NCBI GenBank assembly: GCA_964360585.1
Contig: CAYHXC010000005.1
Location: 7,947 to 71,946, forward strand
From: an uncultured Candidatus Saccharibacteria bacterium
GTDB lineage: Bacteria; Patescibacteriota; Minisyncoccia; UBA6257; 2-01-FULL-56-20
Length of the DNA: 64,000 bases
Reading direction: 5' to 3'
Shown here: in pieces, positions 6,050 through 12,587 of the stretch
Position numbering within the stretch: the stretch's first letter is position 1
How the letters are laid out: every line of letters begins with the position of its first letter
Position numbers and translations under genes: made by a program
Notes under the pieces: generated by a model
Seen by the model: only the letters and a program-made list of their open reading frames with translations
Told to the model about the DNA's origin: nothing
Database searches by the model: none

Positions 6050-9000
6050 TCAACTAAGGCTTACGGCGTTCTCGCAAATCATCTTCGGTTCGCCGTTTCG
6101 CCAGGAGATTTTTCCTTTGAGATAGATGACATTGCTTTCCTGCCAGACCTGGCCTGTTTTGTTTAAGATGTCGTTAAAGACAACGACCTCGAGCGGTTTT
6201 ATGGAGAAGTCTTCGATGTGGGCAAAAAGCATTGGCTGGCCGTTTTTCGTCACAATCTTCTGGATGCGGGAAATAAGACCAAGGATCTTTATCGTCCGGC
6301 CGTCATTTTGGGGTTCCCGGGCCTGGTCGATCGGCGTGCTTTGCCACTCTTTCATTTTATTCGTGAAGCGATTCAAGGGATGATCGGAAAGGAAAAATCC
6401 CAAGAGTTCTTTTTCCCAAACCAGTTTTTCCTGGTCGTTCGTGGCCGCGTTTGGTTTTTTAAGCGTAAGCGTGGCTGTTGGCGGATGGTTGTTGCCAAAA
6501 AGGGAATTCACTGATTCGGTGGCGGCGCGTTTCATGGTTGAACTGAACTTCAGTATCTCATCCATGTTTTCGATAATTTCCTGACGGTCAATTTTCAAGG
6601 AGTCGAAGGTGCCGCACTTGGCCAAGCTTTCCAGGGATTTTTTATTGAGATCCTTGTGATGAATGCGGCGGACAAAATCGTTAAAGTCCTTGAATGATCC
6701 ACCGCGACTTCGCTCTTCGATAATATTCTCCACAATCGCCGCCCCGACATTTTTAATAGCCAGAAGACCGAACCGGATACCAAGACCAGCGCCTTCTTCT
6801 GGGGTGAAGGTTACAAAACTGCGATTGATGTCTGGCGGAAGAATCTGAATTTTCTGTTCCCGTCCTTCCTGGATCAAAAACGAAATACGTTCGATGTCAT
6901 TCATTTCCGCGTTCAAAAGACTAGCCATGAATTCCAGGGGATAGCGGGCCTTCAGATAGGCGGTTTGATATCCAATTAAAGCGTAGCAGGCGGCATGGCT
7001 TTTGTTGAAGCCGTACCGAGCAAACGGCGGAAAGAGTTCCCAGATGGCTTTAGCGGTTTTTTCTGGAATGCCGTTTTTCTCCATGCCCGAGATTAACTTT
7101 TCTTTTTGTTCATCGAGCAGGGATTTAATTTTTTTACCGATAGCTTTGCGGAGTGTGTCAGCTTCAGCCAGAGTAAAACCGGCCAAACTGCGGGCGATCT
7201 GCATCATCTGCTCCTGATACACACCGATGCCATAGGTCATGCCGAGAATCGGCTCAAGTTTGGGGTGAAGATACGTTATTTTTTCCTTACCTTCTTTGCG
7301 TTTGATAAACGATGGAATCAGTTCCATCGGTCCGGGACGGAATAAAGCCACGAGTGCGATCAGATCTTCGAGCATCGTCGGTTTCATTTCTTTCATGTAC
7401 CTTCGCATGCCGCTCGACTCAAACTGGAAGACGCCGGTTGTGTCGCCGGCTTGGAGGAGGGCGAAGGTGGCGGCATCATCAAGCGGCAGTTTTGACATGT
7501 TGATGTTTTCACCGCGTGTTTCGCGAACGAGGCGGATGGTGTCTTGAATGGTCGAGAGGTTACGAAGGCCGAGGAAGTCAATTTTCAAAAGTCCGAGATC
7601 CTCCACGGTACGCATTTCAAACTGGGTGATGATACTTGTCTTATCTTGCGGGGCAAACTGGAGCGGAACGTGATTTACAAGTGGATCTTTCGAAATCACC
7701 GTGCCGCAGGCGTGGACTGAAGCGTGACGCGCCACGCCTTCTAAGTGAAGCGCCACGTCAATCAATTTTTTTGCATCAGTGTTCGTGGTATAGAGCTGTT
7801 TTAGTTCCACAACGTCGTCCAAGGCGGTCTGAAGCTCAAGATGCGGCGTCGGTGGAATCAGTTTGGCAATCTGATCACAGAAATCGTAGGACAGTCCCAT
7901 GGCTCGGCCAGCGTCACGAATCGCGGCGCGCGCCGCCATCGTTCCAAAAGTAATAATTTGGGCCACACGGTCCTGGCCATATTTTTCTCGGGCGTAAGCG
8001 AGAACCTCGTCGCGGCGCGTATCGGCAAAATCGATATCGACGTCAGGCATCTGGATACGATCAGGGTTCAAGAAGCGTTCAAAGAGAAGATCGTAGGCGA
8101 GGGGATTGATGTCGGTGATGCGGAGAATGTATGAAAGCAAGCTACCAGCGGCCGATCCACGGCCTGGTCCAACAGAAATGCCGTGGTCTTTGGCCCAGTT
8201 GATCAAATCCTGGACGATTAAAAAGTAATCGGCGAAGCCAGTTTTTTCGATGACGCTCATCTCGTACTCAATTCGCTCCAAGACTTCCGGTGTTTGTTCT
8301 TCTTTGGTAAATCGTTCGCCGATCCGTTCGTTTACGAGATCGCGCAAGTACTCGTTTGCCGATTTGCCGTTTGGTTTTTCAAAGTGAGGAAGGAGAATGC
8401 CGCCCAATTCCAGTTCAAGATTGCACCGATTGGCAATGACTTGGGTGTTCACGACTGCTTCTGGTATAAAAGAAAATTTTTCCGCCATCTCTTCGGGCGA
8501 AGGCATAGAGAAGTCCTCGTCTTTCATGCTCAAACGGTCATCATCGCTCAAACGATTGCCGGTTTGAACCGCTAACAAGATGTCGTGATACTCGGCTTCG
8601 TCTTTATGTAAGTAATGGCTATCCTGGGTGGCGACAAGCGGTACGCCCGTTGTTTTTGAAAGTTCTAAAAGGAGTGGTTCGAGCTGTTCGGATTCCGGAA
8701 TATTCGGATGTTTCTGAATCTCGAGATAATAATTGTCCTTGCCCATAATCTCCTGATACTCAAGAGCGATTCGCTTAGCCTCATCTTTTTTTCCGGCGAG
8801 CAAGGATTGGGCGATCTCTCCTCCAAGACAAGCCGAAAGGGCGATCAGACCTTCGTGATGTTCGCGGAGAATTTCCTTATCAATGCGCGGTTTATAATAG
8901 TAGCCCTCGAGATGCGCGCGCGTGGAAAGCCGGATGAGATTTTTCCAGCCGACCATGTTGGTCGCGAGAAGAATGAGGTGATAGTACTTTTCGCCGGGAT

Positions 9001-9608: not shown

Positions 9609-9680
9609 GCCGAAGTAGCTCAGTGGCAGAGCAACTGTTTTGTAAACAGTAGGTCGTGGGTTCAAATCCCACCTTCGGCT
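9609..9680 (+). tRNA. tRNA-Thr (anticodon UGU)
   Basis: Full cloverleaf: acceptor GCCGAAG/CTTCGGC, D-arm GCTC/GAGC, anticodon arm ACTGT-TTTGTAA-ACAGT, T-arm GTGGG-TTCAAAT-CCCAC. Confidence 0.85.
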
Positions 9681-9705
9681 CAAATATGGCAAAATTATTC
9701 GTCGG

Positions 9706-9748
9706 GATAAACAGTAGGTCGTCGGTTCAAATCCGACGGGCGGCTCCA
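9706..9748 (+). other. tRNA-like 3' half (anticodon 3' strand, variable loop, T-arm, acceptor GGGCGGC, encoded CCA)
   Basis: AAACAGT-AGGTC-GTCGG-TTCAAAT-CCGAC-GGGCGGC-T-CCA. Compensatory T-stem changes relative to tRNA-Thr(UGU) argue against a decaying pseudogene. The acceptor strand pairs with the 5' half at 9518. Confidence 0.45.
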
Positions 9749-9755
9749 TGATTAT

Positions 9756-10181
9756 GTGGAGTATACTTTAAGGATGATAGAGAAAAACTACATCGATAAA
9801 TTGGCTTGGATATACGTTAAGGACGGGAAGGTATTGAGTACTCGTTCGAAAGGAAAAGATACGTATTACATTCCTGGTGGCAAGCGGGAGGGAAATGAAA
9901 CAGATTTACAGGCATTGATGAGAGAAATACAGGAAGAGTTAAATATTGAGCTTATTCCTGAGACAGTGGAGCATTTTGAAACCTTTGAAGCACAAGCTCA
10001 TGGAAAGCCAGAGGGAACGGTGGTGAGAATGACGTGCTACACGAGTGGCTTCCGAAGAGAAATAAAGGCCAGTTCGGAAATTGAGGAAGTGGTATGGCTG
10101 GATTATTCGGGCAGAGAAAAAAGTTCTCCTGTAGATAAATTAATCTTTGATTACTTGAAGAACAAAAATCTTATCGGCTAG
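9756..10181 (+). CDS. NUDIX hydrolase
   Basis: NUDIX box GGKREGNETDLQALMREIQEELNI. Confidence 0.8.
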   Translation: MEYTLRMIEKNYIDKLAWIYVKDGKVLSTRSKGKDTYYIPGGKREGNETDLQALMREIQEELNIELIPETVEHFETFEAQAHGKPEGTVVRMTCYTSGFRREIKASSEIEEVVWLDYSGREKSSPVDKLIFDYLKNKNLIG

Positions 10182-10194
10182 TTTATCAATCCCT

Positions 10195-10497
10195 ATGAAA
10201 TCAAAAGGGTTTGGTGTTGGCGTGTTGGTGGGAGTAGCAGTGGTGATTCTGGGCTCAATATATCTATTTACCCCGTACTGTTTCTTGCGTCCGACTATTT
10301 TTCCGCCGGACGTACCAGCTTGTCAGGGATTCTTGAGTTACTTCGGCTATCCAATTTTAGCGATCATGATTCCATTGACGTGGCTTGGTATTTCGGAGAA
10401 TTTAGCTTTTGATTTGAGCATCATCGTTCTAATTCTGCTCGGCGGACTCATGGGGAAAATTCTACAGTGGTTCTATAAAATTGTGTCCAAAAAATAA
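10195..10497 (+). CDS. Hypothetical small membrane protein (about 3 TM helices)
   Basis: Hydrophobic 100-aa ORF with tight spacing to its neighbours. Confidence 0.45.
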   Translation: MKSKGFGVGVLVGVAVVILGSIYLFTPYCFLRPTIFPPDVPACQGFLSYFGYPILAIMIPLTWLGISENLAFDLSIIVLILLGGLMGKILQWFYKIVSKK

Positions 10498-10511
10498 GAG
10501 AGTATAATCTA

Positions 10512-10718
10512 GTGAGAATCGGAGGTGTTATGAGTAACTGGGACGGGGAAAACTGGAAAAAACCAGAAGGGCATAGAAAAGATTTAGCAAGTGTGGAGTA
10601 TAGGGGTTCTTTCGGCACAATTCCCTATGACCGCGCCACTAGGAATCCACTTTGCCCCAAGTGCGGAGGAGAAACGGATCAAGCAGGGGAGCACTGTCTT
10701 AGTTGTCTATTGGGATAG
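10512..10718 (+). CDS. Hypothetical zinc-ribbon protein
   Basis: CPKCGG...CLSC C-terminal CxxC...CxxC pair. Confidence 0.4.
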   Translation: MRIGGVMSNWDGENWKKPEGHRKDLASVEYRGSFGTIPYDRATRNPLCPKCGGETDQAGEHCLSCLLG

Positions 10719-10842
10719 ATTATAGAGCTCAACCGTTCTGGTTCGCCAGCACGGTTTTTTTTGACTATTCAATTTAATCCCAGTAAAGACATTGTTGTGG
10801 TACACTAACACTATATTAGTTACTTAGTATACTGTAATACAT

Positions 10843-11427
10843 ATGATCGAGAAGAAATATCTTGAAGAGAAGTATATTCGAAATAAGAAATCAACAAGAG
10901 AGATAGCGATCGAGCTCAAGTGTTCTGAGCACAAGGTGAATTACTGGCTTGGGAAGCATAATATTTTAAAGAGGAATATCAGTGAAGCAATTTATCTGTA
11001 CCATAATCCGAATGGCGACCCTTTTGTTTTTTACGAGCCGAAGAATCAAGAGGAGTCTTTTCTTTTTGGCCTCGGCCTAGGTCTTTACTGGGGTGAAGGA
11101 ACAAAAGCGGACAAAATGTCAGTCCGTCTCGGTAATACTGATCCAAACTTGATAAAAAAATTTATAGAATTTCTTGTAGTAATATTCGGAATTGATAGAT
11201 TAGATCTTCGTTTTGGTCTCCAGTTATTTTCGGATATGAATGTCGAAGAAGCTATGGACTTTTGGATGAAAAGCCTTAGAATTTCAAAAGCTCAGTTTTA
11301 TAAGGTGGTAGTTACGCCCTCTCACAAAATTGGAACGTATCGTAAAAAGACTCTGTATGGAGTTTTGACTGTTTATTACCACAATAAGAAACTGAGAGAT
11401 TTACTAATCAGTAAATTGCCGTTGTAG
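10843..11427 (+). CDS. LAGLIDADG-like homing endonuclease (single-motif type) with an N-terminal HTH
   Basis: FLFGLGLGLYWGEGTKADKMSVRLGNTDPNLIKKFIEFL resembles the LAGLIDADG motif and following helix. N-terminal STREIAIELKCSEHKVNYWL looks like an HTH. The stop codon TAG overlaps the first bases of the intron-containing tRNA. Confidence 0.45.
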   Translation: MIEKKYLEEKYIRNKKSTREIAIELKCSEHKVNYWLGKHNILKRNISEAIYLYHNPNGDPFVFYEPKNQEESFLFGLGLGLYWGEGTKADKMSVRLGNTDPNLIKKFIEFLVVIFGIDRLDLRFGLQLFSDMNVEEAMDFWMKSLRISKAQFYKVVVTPSHKIGTYRKKTLYGVLTVYYHNKKLRDLLISKLPL

Positions 11428-11700
11428 CTCAGCTGGTAGAGCAACTCCATGGTGGATCGCAAAATCCTGCCCATCAAAGGAGAAATCCTTTGATGAATCC
11501 CGAATAACGGTTAACGGCCAAACAGTGGCTAAGACCGTGGCCCAATTGAGGGCCCGAACGACTGACAAGGGCCCCGCCAACCTTCGATGATCTTGAATAT
11601 ATCGAGGGCGGGGAAGATACAGTCTAGCCTTCTAGGATGTTTTTAAAACTAGAAGTGTAAGCGAAGGAGTAGGTCGCCGGTTCAATTCCGGCCAACGGCT
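11418..11700 (+). tRNA. tRNA-Thr (anticodon GGU) interrupted by a ~210-nt group-I-like intron in the anticodon loop
   Basis: 5' exon GCCGTTG-TA-GCTCAGCTGGTAGAGC-A-ACTCC-AUGGU (11418-11453). 3' exon AA-GGAGT-AGGTC-GCCGG-TTCAATT-CCGGC-CAACGGC-T (11664-11700). Acceptor and anticodon stems are complementary across the insertion. The 5' exon ends in U and the insertion ends in G, as at group I splice sites. Confidence 0.65.
11454..11663 (+). other. Group-I-like intron in the tRNA-Thr(GGU) anticodon loop, after position 36
   Basis: Highly structured 210 nt with multiple hairpins, ending in G. No internal ORF; the putative homing endonuclease lies immediately upstream instead. Confidence 0.5.
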
Positions 11701-11807
11701 CAAGGAGTTTTAGATAGGAAGAATTACCGAGATTTTCGGGGATAGAATAGATTTATGGTTAAGCATCCTGAAGTTTGTCAACTTTTAAGTAGTTCTCATC
11801 GTCTTAG

Positions 11808-12587
11808 CTATCCACGAAGCCCCAAAAAATTATTTAATAAACTAGGAATTCCCAAAGCTAAAGTAGCAATAACAGTAGCCACCACGGTATACAGTAATTG
11901 TTTTTTTGCTTTGGTTAAATTTTCACTTTCTCCTCTAGCCCAAACGTATAAATAGGCAGAGTAAAGACCAGAACCAGCGATAATAGTCCATAAAAGAATC
12001 TGAAATTGAGTTACAATACCGGTCAGTAAGCCTACGATATCCTGAACCGAACAAATTGGCCCTTGGCATGGAGGTAAAGAAAGTGAGTTATTTGATCCTC
12101 CGGTTGGTGGAGTAGAATTATTGGGACTAGCGTTGGAAGGAGGCGGATTGAGTGGTGTGGGAGGATTAGGGGGGCTACTAGCGGGAGGTTGCGGAGGTGG
12201 ATTCGTATTTGCCGTAGGAGACTTCCACTGATTTTCTGGAGCATTTGGGTCAACCAGATAATAGTTATCTAGGGAATCGTAATGTGTACAACGAATTGCT
12301 TGGCGCTTATCAGCAAAACTTGGTAATCCATTAATGATATATTGACAGTCGGACAAGACTTTTGACTCACACACCGGATCGCTGCTCGGCATATTGTAGA
12401 CAGGACATATTGGTTTCCACTCACCGGTAGCGAGCAATCTTACCTGTATTCTCCAGGCTATGTCGTTGGATCCGGGTATGGCTTGGTTAGGGTTTCCCCA
12501 GAATGACTTGAGTATTGCGTGTGTCGTTATTGGAGTAGCCAGTAAAATAACGGCAATAAAGAACTTGTACGACCTAAGAGGAGCCAT
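11808..12587 (-). CDS. Secreted protein with a Pro-rich linker and a C-terminal two-TM pilin-like (TrbC/VirB2-like) region
   Basis: Signal peptide MAPLRSYKFFIAVILLATPITTHA, a Cys-containing domain, a P-rich PPPQPPASSPPNPPTPLNPPPS linker, and a C-terminal hydrophobic hairpin with a charged loop (ARGESENLTKAKK). Confidence 0.45.
   Translation of the reverse strand: MAPLRSYKFFIAVILLATPITTHAILKSFWGNPNQAIPGSNDIAWRIQVRLLATGEWKPICPVYNMPSSDPVCESKVLSDCQYIINGLPSFADKRQAIRCTHYDSLDNYYLVDPNAPENQWKSPTANTNPPPQPPASSPPNPPTPLNPPPSNASPNNSTPPTGGSNNSLSLPPCQGPICSVQDIVGLLTGIVTQFQILLWTIIAGSGLYSAYLYVWARGESENLTKAKKQLLYTVVATVIATLALGIPSLLNNFLGLRG

What the first reader, a model, noticed from the sequence alone, without database searches (positions are those of the whole stretch)
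10843..11700. tRNA-Thr(GGU) split by a ~210-nt group-I-like intron, with a free-standing LAGLIDADG-like endonuclease gene whose stop codon overlaps the tRNA 5' end
Seen directly: acceptor halves GCCGTTG (11418-11424) and CAACGGC (11693-11699), and anticodon stem halves ACTCC (11444-11448) and GGAGT (11666-11670), are perfectly complementary but 210 nt apart. The reconstructed loop AUGGU|AA gives anticodon GGU, and the insertion follows U36 and ends in G, as at group I splice junctions. The intervening 11454-11663 is a stack of hairpins with no ORF. The 194-aa ORF immediately upstream (10843-11427) has an LAGLIDADG-like motif (GLGLGLYWGEGT) and an N-terminal HTH, and its TAG stop overlaps the first bases of the tRNA. 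A homing endonuclease outside the intron but adjacent to it matches the collaborative-homing arrangement described for some phage introns, and would be unusual in a chromosomal tRNA.
Basis: partly seen in the sequence, partly recalled or inferred. Interest (0 to 1): 0.7.

Follow-up and report, generated by a model that had tools for sequence, protein, structure and literature searches.

The report
Intron-split tRNA-Thr plus nuclease-like gene
A threonine tRNA gene of a Patescibacteria bacterium is split by an already described self-splicing intron, and the gene pressed against its front end belongs to a large, apparently undescribed family of homing-endonuclease-like genes that always sit beside particular tRNA genes.

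Summary
Positions 11418-11700 are a tRNA-Thr(GGU) gene split after U36 by a 210-nt intron without an ORF (11454-11663). The 194-codon ORF (10843-11427) ends in a TAG that is U8-A9-G10 of the tRNA.

The intron is a group I intron. 91 homologues show a U·G pair at the 5' splice site, a terminal G, and strongly covarying P1-P9 helices, and the tRNA anticodon stem covaries across the intron. It is already known: the 'divergent' tRNA-Thr 36/37 introns of Patescibacteria (Nakagawa 2026), which Rfam RF00028 misses, as it did here.

- All 19 loci found through the ORF have tRNA-Thr(GGU) directly downstream, and 10 of them lack the intron.
- Of 74 loci found through the intron, 23 carry an intact ORF and 4 carry decayed remnants.
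- Paralogues abut tRNA-Tyr and tRNA-Thr(UGU). Relatives lie in tRNA arrays of huge-phage contigs.

The ORF is therefore tied to the tRNA gene, not to the intron. Best reading: a free-standing, SegB-like homing-endonuclease gene. Strict collaborative homing is unproven.

The parts
10805..10833 (+). Candidate sigma-70-like promoter (CTAACA-17-TATACT) just upstream of the ORF
   Evidence: Consensus scan, 9/12 matches, not above shuffled expectation. Weak and inferred only.
10843..11427 (+). 194-aa gene for an HTH + LAGLIDADG-like protein, read as a free-standing homing-endonuclease-like gene. It is 100% identical to NCBI 'hypothetical protein AAB691_03900, Patescibacteria group bacterium'.
   Evidence: ORF list. 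More than 2027 homologue clusters at 55-68% identity. AF2 model with pLDDT 89. It is the lowest-GC stretch of the 64-kb window: 36.6% against 47.1%, 0.24th percentile.
10852..11004 (+). N-terminal helix-turn-helix domain (about residues 4-54)
11068..11106 (+). LAGLIDADG-like motif GLGLGLYWGEGTK (residues 76-88) with the putative catalytic Glu85
   Evidence: hhalign to I-DmoI motif 2 (GLYVAEGDK), E = 0.034 rising to 0.0012 with a more diverse profile. Glu85 is kept in 40/44 diverse members and is invariant across the Thr and Tyr subfamilies.
11035..11424 (+). C-terminal LAGLIDADG-like domain (residues 65-194)
11418..11427 (+). Overlap of the ORF 3' end (codons P-L-stop) with tRNA nucleotides 1-10. 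The TAG stop is U8-A9-G10.
   Evidence: Sequence. The same arrangement occurs in many homologous loci.
11418..11453 (+). tRNA-Thr(GGU) 5' exon (nt 1-36: acceptor, D arm, 5' anticodon stem, A32-U33-G34-G35-U36)
   Evidence: The anticodon stem covaries across the intron (helix 3).
11454..11663 (+). Group I (IA-like) intron of 210 nt with no ORF, inserted at position 36/37
   Evidence: Alignment of 91 homologues. RNAalifold and pair counts: 97.2% of cells paired, covariation score 0.503 against at most 0.093 when slid, 0/500 shuffles. Described family (PMC13011429).
11451..11471 (+). P1: exon G-G-U (11451-11453) plus the first intron bases, paired with the internal guide CUGCC (11467-11471). U11453·G11469 is the wobble pair at the 5' splice site.
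   Evidence: U·G in 90/91 sequences. The intron-internal extension of P1 covaries.
11472..11495 (+). P2 hairpin with a GAAA tetraloop (L2)
   Evidence: All 9 pairs covary. Across the family, a GAAA L2 goes with an 11-nt-receptor-like motif (CUAAG...UAUG) in P8: 31/57 against 3/34, p = 1.2e-5, not corrected for phylogeny.
11499..11501 (+). P3 5' strand (CCC). It pairs with GGG 11569-11571 and forms a pseudoknot with P7.
   Evidence: Complementary in 91/91 sequences and nearly invariant, so covariation says nothing about it (helix 6).
11507..11538 (+). P4-P5 domain. P4 is 11507-11512 / 11533-11538 and P5 is 11517-11520 / 11526-11529. It contains the P-like (AAUAACGGUUAA) and Q-like (AAGACCGU) elements.
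   Evidence: P4 is invariant and P5 covaries at 4/4 pairs.
11539..11554 (+). P6 hairpin
   Evidence: 5/5 pairs covary.
11556..11571 (+). R-like element GAACGACUGACAAGGG, containing the P7 5' strand (11560-11564) and the P3 3' strand (11569-11571)
   Evidence: This is the 16-mer used for the metagenome scan. Its partners, CAGUC 11620-11624 and CCC 11499-11501, were not part of the query. CAGUC is invariant; CCC is complementary in all 91 sequences, with its last base a U in 4.
11572..11613 (+). P8 stem-loop
   Evidence: 4/4 scored pairs covary. The single-sequence fold extends the stem.
11614..11624 (+). S-like element AAGAUACAGUC (J8/7 plus the P7 3' strand)
   Evidence: Nearly invariant in 91 sequences. 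It resembles the AAGAUAUAGUC consensus of group I cores (from memory).
11629..11655 (+). P9 hairpin
   Evidence: 6/6 pairs covary.
11663..11663 (+). Terminal guanosine of the intron (omega-G)
   Evidence: G in 95/96 parsed homologues; the one exception was a parsing failure.
11664..11700 (+). tRNA-Thr(GGU) 3' exon (A37-A38, 3' anticodon stem, variable loop, T arm, acceptor 3' strand, discriminator U). No CCA is encoded.

Best explanation
Two separate genetic elements occupy one tRNA gene.

(1) The intron. Positions 11418-11700 are the functional tRNA-Thr(GGU) gene of a Patescibacteria genome. It is interrupted between nt 36 and 37 by a 210-nt group I (IA-like) intron that carries no ORF. In the precursor, exon G-G-U pairs with the intron's internal guide (U11453·G11469). 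An external guanosine cleaves after U36. The terminal G11663 then directs exon ligation and restores the loop AUGGUAA. This is inferred from the structure. Splicing has been shown experimentally only for other Patescibacteria tRNA introns.

(2) The ORF. The 194-aa ORF is a free-standing homing-endonuclease-like gene. It has an N-terminal HTH and one divergent LAGLIDADG-like domain with a conserved Glu, which would presumably act as a homodimer. It belongs to a large family whose subfamilies each sit directly 5' of one particular tRNA gene: Thr-GGU, Tyr-GUA or Thr-UGU.

I propose that the protein recognises DNA of its tRNA gene in genomes that lack the ORF and cuts it. Repair from an ORF-bearing copy then installs the ORF at the tRNA's 5' edge. 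This is 'intronless homing', as with phage T4 SegB. Because the intron site lies only 36 bp away, the same repair tract can carry the intron along. That would be trans-homing by co-conversion, as with T4 mobE and I-TevIII. It does not require the enzyme's target to be the intron insertion site.

The ORF is probably co-transcribed with the tRNA. RNase P cleavage at G11418 would then remove its last codons and the stop codon, which could keep expression low. This last point is speculation.
For: Intron:
- U·G at the 5' splice site in 90/91 sequences and a terminal G in 95/96.
- P1 extension, P2, P5, P6, P8 and P9 all covary. P3, P4 and P7 are complementary and (nearly) invariant. Overall 97.2% of cells are paired, with score 0.503 against at most 0.093 for slid controls and 0/500 shuffles.
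- The tRNA anticodon stem covaries across the intron.
- L2 GAAA co-varies with a P8 receptor-like motif.
- The single-sequence fold has z = -5.5.
- The same family is described as 'divergent group I introns' of tRNA-Thr(GGU) 36/37, missed by RF00028 (PMC13011429).

ORF is a real gene:
- More than 2027 homologue clusters and AF2 pLDDT of 89-91.

LAGLIDADG-like:
- hhalign aligns GLYWGEGTK with I-DmoI GLYVAEGDK at E = 0.0012.
- 5/44 relatives weakly hit PF14528.
- Glu85 is conserved in 40/44 members.

Mobile or selfish behaviour:
- 19/19 loci found through the ORF have tRNA-Thr(GGU) directly downstream, in at least 6 unrelated neighbourhoods.
- The ORF is present or absent among intron-bearing loci: 23 intact, 4 truncated remnants, 1 inverted, and 46 without it (4 of these have a paralogue next to another tRNA gene), out of 74.
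- It is the lowest-GC spot of the window.

Family-level link to tRNA genes:
- Paralogues abut tRNA-Thr(UGU) and tRNA-Tyr.
- 4/4 Tyr-subfamily members found through the protein are followed by tRNA-Tyr: within 9 nt, or overlapping it, for the three tRNAs that ARAGORN calls; the fourth (L158) I identified by eye.
- 6/6 relatives in IMG/VR contigs lie inside tRNA arrays, and several overlap a tRNA end.
Against: - No nuclease activity, target site or splicing could be tested.
- The window protein has no Pfam, NCBIfam or PDB sequence hit. Foldseek found nothing.
- The family is unusually well conserved (55-68% identity across CPR classes). Strong selection for a cellular role would also explain this.
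- The recognition site would remain in ORF-bearing genomes unless it spans the insertion junction. How self-cleavage is avoided is unknown.
- I could not find closely related genome pairs that differ only by the ORF, so precise insertion boundaries and horizontal transfer are not shown.
- The apparent enrichment of the intron next to the ORF (9/19 against 3/95 in the literature, p = 2.4e-6) uses unmatched samples. One of three ORF-less control loci also has the intron.
Confidence: 0.55

Rival explanations
1. Strict collaborative homing. The endonuclease's target is the intron insertion site in the anticodon loop of intron-less tRNA-Thr(GGU) genes. The intron protects the host copy, and intron and ORF spread as one unit.
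For: - The ORF-less intron and the endonuclease-like gene lie 36 bp apart.
- About half of the loci found through the ORF carry the intron, and about a third of intron-bearing loci carry the ORF.
- The anticodon arm is a natural inverted repeat (ACTCC-ATGGTAA-GGAGT) centred on the insertion site. That would suit a homodimeric single-motif LAGLIDADG enzyme (inference).
- Intron-bearing alleles almost always have C-C at positions 30-31 (88/91). Only 3 of 10 ORF-bearing intron-less alleles do. This would fit resistant target variants.
- The mechanism is known in phages (PMC3984707).
Against: - The ORF sits next to uninterrupted tRNA-Thr(GGU) in 10/19 loci.
- In L012, L007 and L150 the intron-less anticodon arm has the same core (UCCAUGGUAAGGA) as intron-bearing alleles, yet the ORF is intact.
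- 46/74 intron-bearing loci have no copy or remnant of the ORF next to the tRNA.
- Paralogues flank tRNA genes without introns.
- No matched base rate is available, so the association is untested.
Confidence: 0.15
2. A domesticated LAGLIDADG/HTH protein with a cellular role and no nuclease activity. It could be a WhiA-like DNA-binding regulator of the tRNA transcription unit, or a maturase or chaperone for the pre-tRNA. In that case the position next to the tRNA reflects co-regulation, not mobility.
For: - WhiA is among the best structural matches and also combines LAGLIDADG and HTH domains.
- Sequence conservation across CPR classes is very high and most copies are full length.
- The fixed orientation and abutment to the tRNA 5' end suggest co-transcription.
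- LAGLIDADG maturases are known (established knowledge).
Against: - Distribution is patchy and truncated or frameshifted remnants exist.
- The GC content is anomalously low.
- The ORF occurs in many unrelated neighbourhoods and in tRNA arrays of contigs that IMG/VR classes as viral.
- The catalytic-position Glu is retained, whereas WhiA and most maturases have lost it (the comparison is from memory).
- Presence next to intron-less tRNAs argues against a pure maturase.
Confidence: 0.25
3. Nothing functional: a tRNA pseudogene disrupted by a non-splicing insertion, next to a spurious or decaying ORF.
For: Default tRNA finders and Rfam do not call the gene, and RF00028 does not match.
Against: - Both tRNA halves are conserved and their anticodon stem covaries across the insert in 91 genomes.
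- The insert has a covarying group I architecture.
- The ORF has thousands of homologues and a confident fold.
- No second tRNA-Thr(GGU) lies in the window.
Confidence: 0.02

Closest known systems
'Divergent' group I introns at position 36/37 of tRNA-Thr(GGU) in Patescibacteria (Nakagawa et al. 2026, PMC13011429, Table 1 and Fig. 6c; found by tFind, Williams 2020, bioRxiv 10.1101/2020.01.27.920355; said there to have been noted by Castelle et al. 2018)
   Same: Same host tRNA, same insertion site, same phylum and similar length. It is likewise missed by RF00028, and ARAGORN likewise miscalls it as Arg(GCG) 34/35. The paper places these introns within subgroup IA.
   Different: Nothing essential differs: the window's intron is a further member. 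What is new here is a 91-sequence covariation test, a possible L2-P8 tertiary contact, evidence that the family is common in metagenomes (120+ hits, scan truncated), and relatives with the same core inside protein-coding genes.
Phage T4 SegB, a free-standing GIY-YIG homing endonuclease inside the T4 tRNA gene cluster (PMC2330249)
   Same: A free-standing endonuclease gene embedded among tRNA genes. SegB's recognition site includes a conserved tRNA sequence (the T-psi-C stem-loop), and it drives inheritance of itself and the surrounding tRNA genes. This is the behaviour I propose here.
   Different: The catalytic fold differs (GIY-YIG against LAGLIDADG-like + HTH), and SegB is in a phage rather than a bacterial chromosome. 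The family here is locked to the 5' edge of one specific tRNA gene per subfamily and often overlaps it. No activity has been shown here.
Collaborative / trans homing: F-CphI with the psbA intron of cyanophage S-PM2, and T4 mobE mobilising the nrdB intron (PMC3984707, PMC6083498, PMC2790892)
   Same: An ORF-less or defunct group I intron lies next to a free-standing endonuclease gene. The intron can be mobilised in trans by the neighbour's DNA break.
   Different: Those are phage protein-coding genes with Endo VII-type or HNH enzymes. Here the host gene is a chromosomal tRNA gene, and the ORF is at least as often found without the intron. Any partnership is therefore facultative, and the target site is unknown.
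LAGLIDADG endonucleases I-DmoI, I-Tsp061I and the TliVMA intein endonuclease, and the LAGLIDADG-derived regulator WhiA
   Same: These are the best structural matches of the C-terminal domain. The motif helix ends in G-E-G-x-K as in I-DmoI motif 2. WhiA shares the LAGLIDADG + HTH combination.
   Different: There is only one LAGLIDADG-like domain and the HTH is N-terminal (WhiA's is C-terminal, with two degenerate LAGLIDADG domains). There is no significant sequence-profile match, and there is an extra helix between strands. The known Patescibacteria LAGLIDADG genes sit inside rRNA introns (PMC11270868, as cited in PMC13011429), not beside tRNA genes.

Membership tests
Group I intron | 5' splice site after a U that forms a U·G wobble pair in P1 with the internal guide sequence | tested here: met
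   U11453·G11469. U·G in 90/91 homologues, with exon G-G paired to C-C in 91/91.
Group I intron | The intron ends in a guanosine (omega-G) | tested here: met
   G11663. G in 95/96 parsed homologues.
Group I intron | Conserved core: P3-P8 and P4-P6 domains with a P3/P7 pseudoknot and P, Q, R, S-like elements | tested here: met
   P2, P5, P6, P8 and P9 covary at every pair. P3, P4 and P7 are complementary in 91/91 but (nearly) invariant, so covariation says nothing about them. Whole structure: 97.2% paired, score 0.503 against at most 0.093 when slid. The four sequence elements were recognised by eye (consensus from memory).
Group I intron | Match to the curated covariance model Rfam RF00028 | tested here: not met
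   No hit even at E <= 10 on 11350-11760, and none at gathering threshold in 10 related loci. PMC13011429 reports the same failure for this intron family, so I treat it as a limit of the model.
Group I intron | Guanosine-dependent self-splicing | not testable with these tools
LAGLIDADG homing endonuclease | LAGLIDADG motif helix ending in a catalytic Asp/Glu | tested here: met
   G-L-G-L-Y-W-G-E85-G aligns with I-DmoI G-L-Y-V-A-E-G (motif 2) by hhalign, E = 0.034 then 0.0012. That this I-DmoI Glu is the catalytic residue E117 is from memory. Glu is present in 40/44 diverse members and invariant in A5.
LAGLIDADG homing endonuclease | alpha-beta-beta-alpha-beta-beta-alpha core fold | tested here: inconclusive
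LAGLIDADG homing endonuclease | Significant match to a curated LAGLIDADG profile (PF00961, PF03161, PF14528, ...) | tested here: not met
   None for the window protein at E <= 10. Only weak PF14528 hits (best E = 0.0088) in 5/44 relatives. The profile search against PDB sequences was negative.
LAGLIDADG homing endonuclease | Site-specific DNA cleavage and super-Mendelian inheritance | not testable with these tools
   Only indirect signs: presence/absence differences, decayed copies, low GC and many genomic contexts.
Collaborative homing pair (free-standing endonuclease + ORF-less intron) | [quoted passage not shown] | tested here: met
   The arrangement is present in the window, in 23/74 loci found through the intron and in 9/19 loci found through the ORF. 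It is met only if the ORF is an endonuclease.
Collaborative homing pair (free-standing endonuclease + ORF-less intron) | The endonuclease target coincides with the intron insertion site, so that the intron confers immunity | not testable with these tools
   Indirect evidence leans against it. ORF-bearing intron-less alleles L012, L007 and L150 carry the same anticodon-arm core as intron-bearing alleles.
Collaborative homing pair (free-standing endonuclease + ORF-less intron) | Statistical association of ORF and intron beyond shared ancestry | tested here: inconclusive
   9/19 against the literature's 3/95 gives p = 2.4e-6. The samples are not matched, and 1 of 3 ORF-less control loci also has the intron.
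SegB-like free-standing endonucleases of tRNA gene clusters | Gene located among or adjacent to tRNA genes, with presence/absence differences between related genomes | tested here: met
   19/19 loci for the Thr subfamily, 4/4 for the Tyr subfamily and 6/6 for IMG/VR relatives. Polymorphism and remnants are seen.
SegB-like free-standing endonucleases of tRNA gene clusters | GIY-YIG catalytic domain | tested here: not met
   No GIY-YIG hit in Pfam, and the fold matches are to LAGLIDADG proteins. It may work like SegB but it is not a member of that family.

The most novel reading that the evidence does not exclude
The ORF represents a large, undescribed family of tRNA-gene-specific free-standing homing endonucleases, built from an HTH plus a single divergent LAGLIDADG-like domain. 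Subfamilies are each dedicated to the 5' edge of one tRNA gene (Thr-GGU, more than 2000 clusters; Tyr-GUA, more than 500; Thr-UGU), and relatives lie in the tRNA arrays of huge phages. By gene conversion they would spread themselves, the adjoining tRNA gene and, in trans, the ORF-less group I introns inside it. That would be the missing mobility route for the endonuclease-less tRNA introns that are so common in Patescibacteria.
Probability: 0.35. Interest if true: 0.8.

Novelty: new variant of a known kind. Interest (0 to 1): 0.6.

Why it matters
1. Annotation. Default tRNA finders and Rfam miss this gene, so the genome would be scored as lacking tRNA-Thr(GGU).

2. Intron biology. The recent survey of Patescibacteria tRNA introns looked for endonuclease genes only inside introns, found almost none, and concluded that horizontal spread is limited (PMC13011429). 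An endonuclease-like gene parked just outside the tRNA, in about a third of intron-bearing loci, offers a testable alternative route (trans-homing).

3. Protein function. A family of several thousand 'hypothetical proteins' gets a concrete hypothesis that can be tested at the bench. If they are active, these would be compact natural nucleases aimed at highly conserved tRNA genes.

4. A possible regulatory oddity. ORFs that borrow their stop codon from within a tRNA gene (U8-A9-G10, the D loop, or even the anticodon) link translation of the ORF to tRNA 5' processing.

Tried and rejected
- Rfam at the gathering threshold and at E <= 10: no group I hit. I did not take this as refutation, because the literature reports the same blind spot.
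- Pfam, NCBIfam and phmmer/hmmsearch against PDB sequences for the ORF: nothing but noise, for example nanobody CDR matches to 'YWGxGT'.
- Foldseek against PDB: no match with E <= 0.001. The afdb50 library was unavailable.
- tblastn against GenBank phages: no match.
It was repeated with A2.
- Search for close genome pairs that differ only in the ORF or the intron, to define insertion boundaries: the flanks are too diverged.
- Test for horizontal transfer by comparing intron identity with flank identity: introns up to 92% identical sit in unalignable flanks, but functional constraint explains this equally well, so it is inconclusive.
- A first strict regular expression for the 11-nt receptor gave no association. 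A looser, still motif-based definition did, so this result depends on the definition.
- Enrichment of the intron beside the ORF against the published 3/95 base rate: computed, then downgraded because the samples are unmatched.
- ARAGORN's reading as tRNA-Arg(GCG) with the intron at 34/35: rejected. The 5' exon would end in G, and intron-less orthologues are tRNA-Thr(GGU).
- The 58-aa antisense ORF 11404-11580 inside the intron: treated as spurious.
Full report
**Source and observation.** The window comes from a Patescibacteria (CPR) metagenome-assembled genome. The ORF product is 100% identical to NCBI 'hypothetical protein AAB691_03900, Patescibacteria group bacterium'.

Every coordinate in the finding checks out:
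- GCCGTTG 11418-11424 pairs with CAACGGC 11693-11699.
- ACTCC 11444-11448 pairs with GGAGT 11666-11670.
- The loop is AUGGU|AA, with 210 nt (11454-11663) inserted after U36 and ending in G.
- The 194-codon ORF 10843-11427 ends in a TAG that is U8-A9-G10 of the tRNA.

Default ARAGORN and Rfam do not call the gene. ARAGORN with introns allowed finds a split tRNA at 11418-11701 with a 210-nt intron, but shifts the boundary by two bases and names it Arg(GCG). The U36/G boundaries give a canonical tRNA-Thr(GGU). That product is 73/74 identical to the uninterrupted tRNA-Thr(GGU) of a related genome, L012.

**The intron is a group I intron.** Rfam RF00028 gives no hit, even at E <= 10.

I scanned metagenome contigs with a 16-mer from the putative R element (GAACGACTGACAAGGG). 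96 of the regions carrying the 16-mer, counting seven genome loci fetched earlier, contain an interrupted tRNA. All 96 are tRNA-Thr(GGU) split after U36, with introns of 169-269 nt, and the intron ends in G in 95 of them.

On an alignment of 91 of these, RNAalifold recovers the tRNA cloverleaf around the intron and the helices P1, P2, P4, P5, P6, P7, P8 and P9. I added P3 (CCC 11499-11501 with GGG 11569-11571) as a pseudoknot with P7 and counted pairs:
- 97.2% of cells form standard pairs.
- The covariation score is 0.503, against at most 0.093 for partners slid by 1-3 columns. None of 500 shuffles reaches it.
- Every pair of P2, P5, P6, P8 and P9, and the intron-internal part of P1, shows compensatory changes.
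- P3, P4 and P7 are complementary in all sequences but (nearly) invariant, so covariation says nothing about them. Part of that invariance follows from the 16-mer used for the search, but their partner strands were not in the query.
- The 5' splice site U pairs with G in 90/91 sequences.
- The tRNA anticodon stem covaries across the intron at all five pairs. The two halves are therefore selected as one tRNA, which means the intron must be removed.

Three further observations agree with a folded ribozyme. A GAAA tetraloop in L2 goes with a CUAAG...UAUG receptor-like motif in P8 (31/57 against 3/34, p = 1.2e-5, uncorrected for phylogeny and dependent on the motif definition). The window's intron alone folds into the same helices with z = -5.5. 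Introns with nearly the same core sit in protein-coding genes of other metagenome contigs.

**The intron is already known.** Nakagawa et al. 2026 (PMC13011429) list tRNA-Thr(GGU) 36/37 introns in 3 of 95 complete Patescibacteria genomes. They call them 'divergent group I introns' and report that RF00028 does not detect them, whereas the tFind model of Williams 2020 does. They also report that ARAGORN returns Arg(GCG) 34/35, which is exactly what I saw. Their phylogeny places these introns within subgroup IA. [quoted passage not shown]

**The ORF is a real gene with an HTH and a LAGLIDADG-like domain.** It has more than 2027 homologue clusters at E <= 1e-3. All are about 194-210 aa, 55-68% identical, and come from many CPR lineages. 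Sequence searches against Pfam, NCBIfam and PDB find nothing for the window protein.

Profile-to-sequence comparison aligns GLGLYWGEGTK...RLGNTD with I-DmoI motif 2, GLYVAEGDKT...RIWNKN. The E-value improves from 0.034 to 0.0012 with a more diverse family profile. 5 of 44 diverse relatives hit Pfam LAGLIDADG_3 weakly. Glu85, aligned with the Glu of I-DmoI motif 2 (its catalytic role as E117 is from memory), is kept in 40/44 diverse members and is invariant in a joint alignment of two subfamilies.

The N-terminal ~50 residues are an HTH. I conclude that the protein is an HTH plus one divergent LAGLIDADG-like domain, with probability about 0.8. Formal family membership is not established.

**The ORF goes with the tRNA gene, not with the intron.**
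- All 14 GTDB loci found through the protein have tRNA-Thr(GGU) directly downstream. Seven have the intron and seven do not; one of the latter (L014) holds only a 26-aa remnant of the ORF.
- Six further proteins looked up by identity give the same adjacency in quite different neighbourhoods: ABC/FtsX...SLH, NifU/PMT_2...TPR, S6/S18...NifU, HD...RF, EF-Ts...L33 and MtN3...L33. Four of the six are intron-less.
- Counting distinct lineages, 19/19 intact ORFs abut tRNA-Thr(GGU): 9 with the intron and 10 without.
- Conversely, 74 metagenome loci found through the intron have at least 620 nt of upstream sequence. Of these, 23 have a near-full-length ORF within about 150 nt on the same strand. 4 have truncated remnants that always keep the tRNA-proximal C-terminus (L019, L024, L114, and L110 with an internal deletion). 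1 has an inverted copy. 4 have only a paralogue farther upstream. 42 have nothing.
- The ORF is found both in the Thr(UGU)-Tyr-Thr(GGU)-rpmG-Trp context and in the Met-Met-Asp-Thr(GGU)-Thr(CGU) context.
- In roughly a third of loci the ORF ends inside the tRNA. The stop is at U8-A9-G10, or at the TAG of the D loop in L135. In the rest it ends 20-90 nt upstream.
- In the window, the ORF is the most AT-rich 585-nt stretch of all 64 kb: 36.6% GC against 47.1%, at the 0.24th percentile.

**This is a property of the whole family.** Paralogues with 28-31% identity, the same HTH and the same LYWGEG[AT]K motif abut other tRNA genes:
- L037 and L093 stop 0-1 nt before tRNA-Thr(UGU).
- L098 and L128 sit a few nucleotides before tRNA-Tyr. 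In L128 that tRNA-Tyr has its own intron.
- L047 reads 36 nt into tRNA-Tyr and stops at U35-A36-A37.

The Tyr subfamily has at least 502 clusters. Four members chosen only by protein and contig length are all followed by tRNA-Tyr. For the three tRNAs that ARAGORN calls, the ORF ends within 9 nt of the tRNA or overlaps it. The fourth (L158) is not called by ARAGORN, and I identified it by eye. trmD lies upstream in three of the four loci.

A scan of IMG/VR found six relatives (27-35% identity over the LAGLIDADG-like domain, each with an N-terminal HTH) on contigs of 100-497 kb. All lie inside tRNA arrays. Several have 3' ends that abut or overlap a tRNA gene on the opposite strand, which gives C-termini such as ...AGFEPASLE from the antisense T arm. 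I did not verify that these contigs are viral. I found no paper describing this family or its position.

**Interpretation.** The following signs fit a selfish, site-specific element better than a housekeeping gene:
- strict adjacency to one tRNA gene across unrelated neighbourhoods;
- presence/absence differences between loci;
- truncated and frameshifted remnants;
- anomalously low GC;
- a conserved catalytic-position Glu;
- relatives in tRNA arrays of contigs that IMG/VR classes as viral.

The closest functional analogue is T4 SegB. It is a free-standing (GIY-YIG) endonuclease in the T4 tRNA cluster that recognises a conserved tRNA motif and drives inheritance of itself and its tRNA neighbours (PMC2330249). 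Because the intron site is 36 bp from the ORF, any conversion tract that installs the ORF would probably carry the intron as well. This is what happens when T4 mobE mobilises the nrdB intron in trans (PMC2790892).

Strict collaborative homing, where the target is the intron insertion site (PMC3984707), is not excluded. The anticodon arm is a neat inverted repeat around the site, and intron-less ORF-bearing alleles mostly have different anticodon stems. Against it, the ORF is at least as often found beside uninterrupted tRNAs. Three of those (L012, L007, L150) have the same anticodon-arm core as intron-bearing alleles.

The apparent enrichment of the intron beside the ORF (9/19 against the published 3/95, p = 2.4e-6) is unreliable. 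The samples are not matched, and one of three ORF-less control loci (L160) also has the intron.

A domesticated, WhiA-like role remains a serious rival, given the high conservation and the fixed orientation.

**Shown and inferred.**
- Shown here: the sequence features; the covarying group I architecture; the tRNA identity; the reality and domain make-up of the ORF at fold level; and its genomic associations.
- Inferred: splicing; nuclease activity; dimerisation; homing to the tRNA 5' flank; co-conversion of the intron; and co-transcription with loss of the stop codon on RNase P cleavage.

**Verdict.** The intron half of the finding is correct but already known. I rate the whole as a new variant of a known kind, with interest 0.6.

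Noticed in passing
L008:1132-1426 (and L128:766-1036): The tRNA-Tyr(GUA) genes upstream of the tRNA-Thr(GGU) are themselves split, after ...ACUGU (position 35/36). The intron (212 nt in L008) is from a different group I family, with R element GUAGAGACUAGA and S element AAGAUAUAGUCC. In L128 this split tRNA-Tyr is preceded by a paralogue of the ORF. ARAGORN miscalls L128's gene as Ser(UGA).
   Followed up: partly
L021:6185-6560 and 6650-7030; L119, L134, L076, L087 around the 16-mer: Group I introns with almost the same core as the tRNA-Thr intron (…CCCGAAUAUCGGUUAAA…GACCGAAGCG…CGAACGACUGACAAGGG…GAUAUACAGUCUG…) sit inside what look like protein-coding genes. L021 has two of them 468 nt apart. 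RF00028 misses these too.
   Followed up: partly
P0130, P0135, P0141 and about 50 others: The ~50-aa N-terminal HTH module of the ORF also occurs as 6-14 tandem copies in proteins of 350-820 aa. These score as HTH_23 and many other HTH families. Their function and genomic context are unknown.
   Followed up: partly
L151-L156 (IMG/VR contigs of 100-497 kb): Relatives of the ORF lie in tRNA gene arrays of contigs classed as viral. In L152, L153 and L155 the ORF's 3' end overlaps the 3' part of a tRNA gene on the opposite strand. In L154 the ORF is followed by a tRNA-like sequence with loop CUUUCAAG (a possible UCA-anticodon suppressor) that ARAGORN does not call. Viral origin was not verified.
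   Followed up: partly
L158:1434-1520: A tRNA-Tyr(GUA)-like gene with an unusual D arm directly follows a Tyr-subfamily ORF. ARAGORN does not call it.
   Followed up: no
window 9609-11418: In most relatives, tRNA-Tyr lies between tRNA-Thr(UGU) and tRNA-Thr(GGU). In this window three other ORFs lie between them ahead of the endonuclease-like gene (NUDIX 9756-10181; a 100-aa membrane protein 10195-10497; a 68-aa Cys-rich protein 10512-10718). No tRNA-Tyr is found anywhere in the 64 kb, even with introns allowed.
   Followed up: partly
window 11808-12587 (- strand): A 259-aa protein with a signal-like N-terminus, a proline-rich middle and a weak C-terminal match to T4SS_pilin (PF18895, E = 5.5e-4) lies just downstream of the tRNA, on the opposite strand.
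   Followed up: no
A3 columns 31-32 / 320-321 (tRNA positions 30-31 / 39-40): Intron-bearing tRNA-Thr(GGU) alleles almost always have C30-C31 / G39-G40 (88/91), whereas only 3 of 10 ORF-bearing intron-less alleles do. Three explanations are possible: a P10 or exon-context requirement of the intron, co-conversion of exon sequence during homing, or target-site resistance. The data do not decide between them.
   Followed up: partly
L019, L024, L110, L114, L126, L045 upstream of the tRNA: All decayed copies of the ORF keep the tRNA-proximal C-terminal part and have lost the N-terminal part. L110 keeps residues 1-35 fused out of frame to residues 169-192. This might mean that the ORF's 3' end carries signals the tRNA needs, such as a promoter or processing context. 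Not tested.
   Followed up: partly
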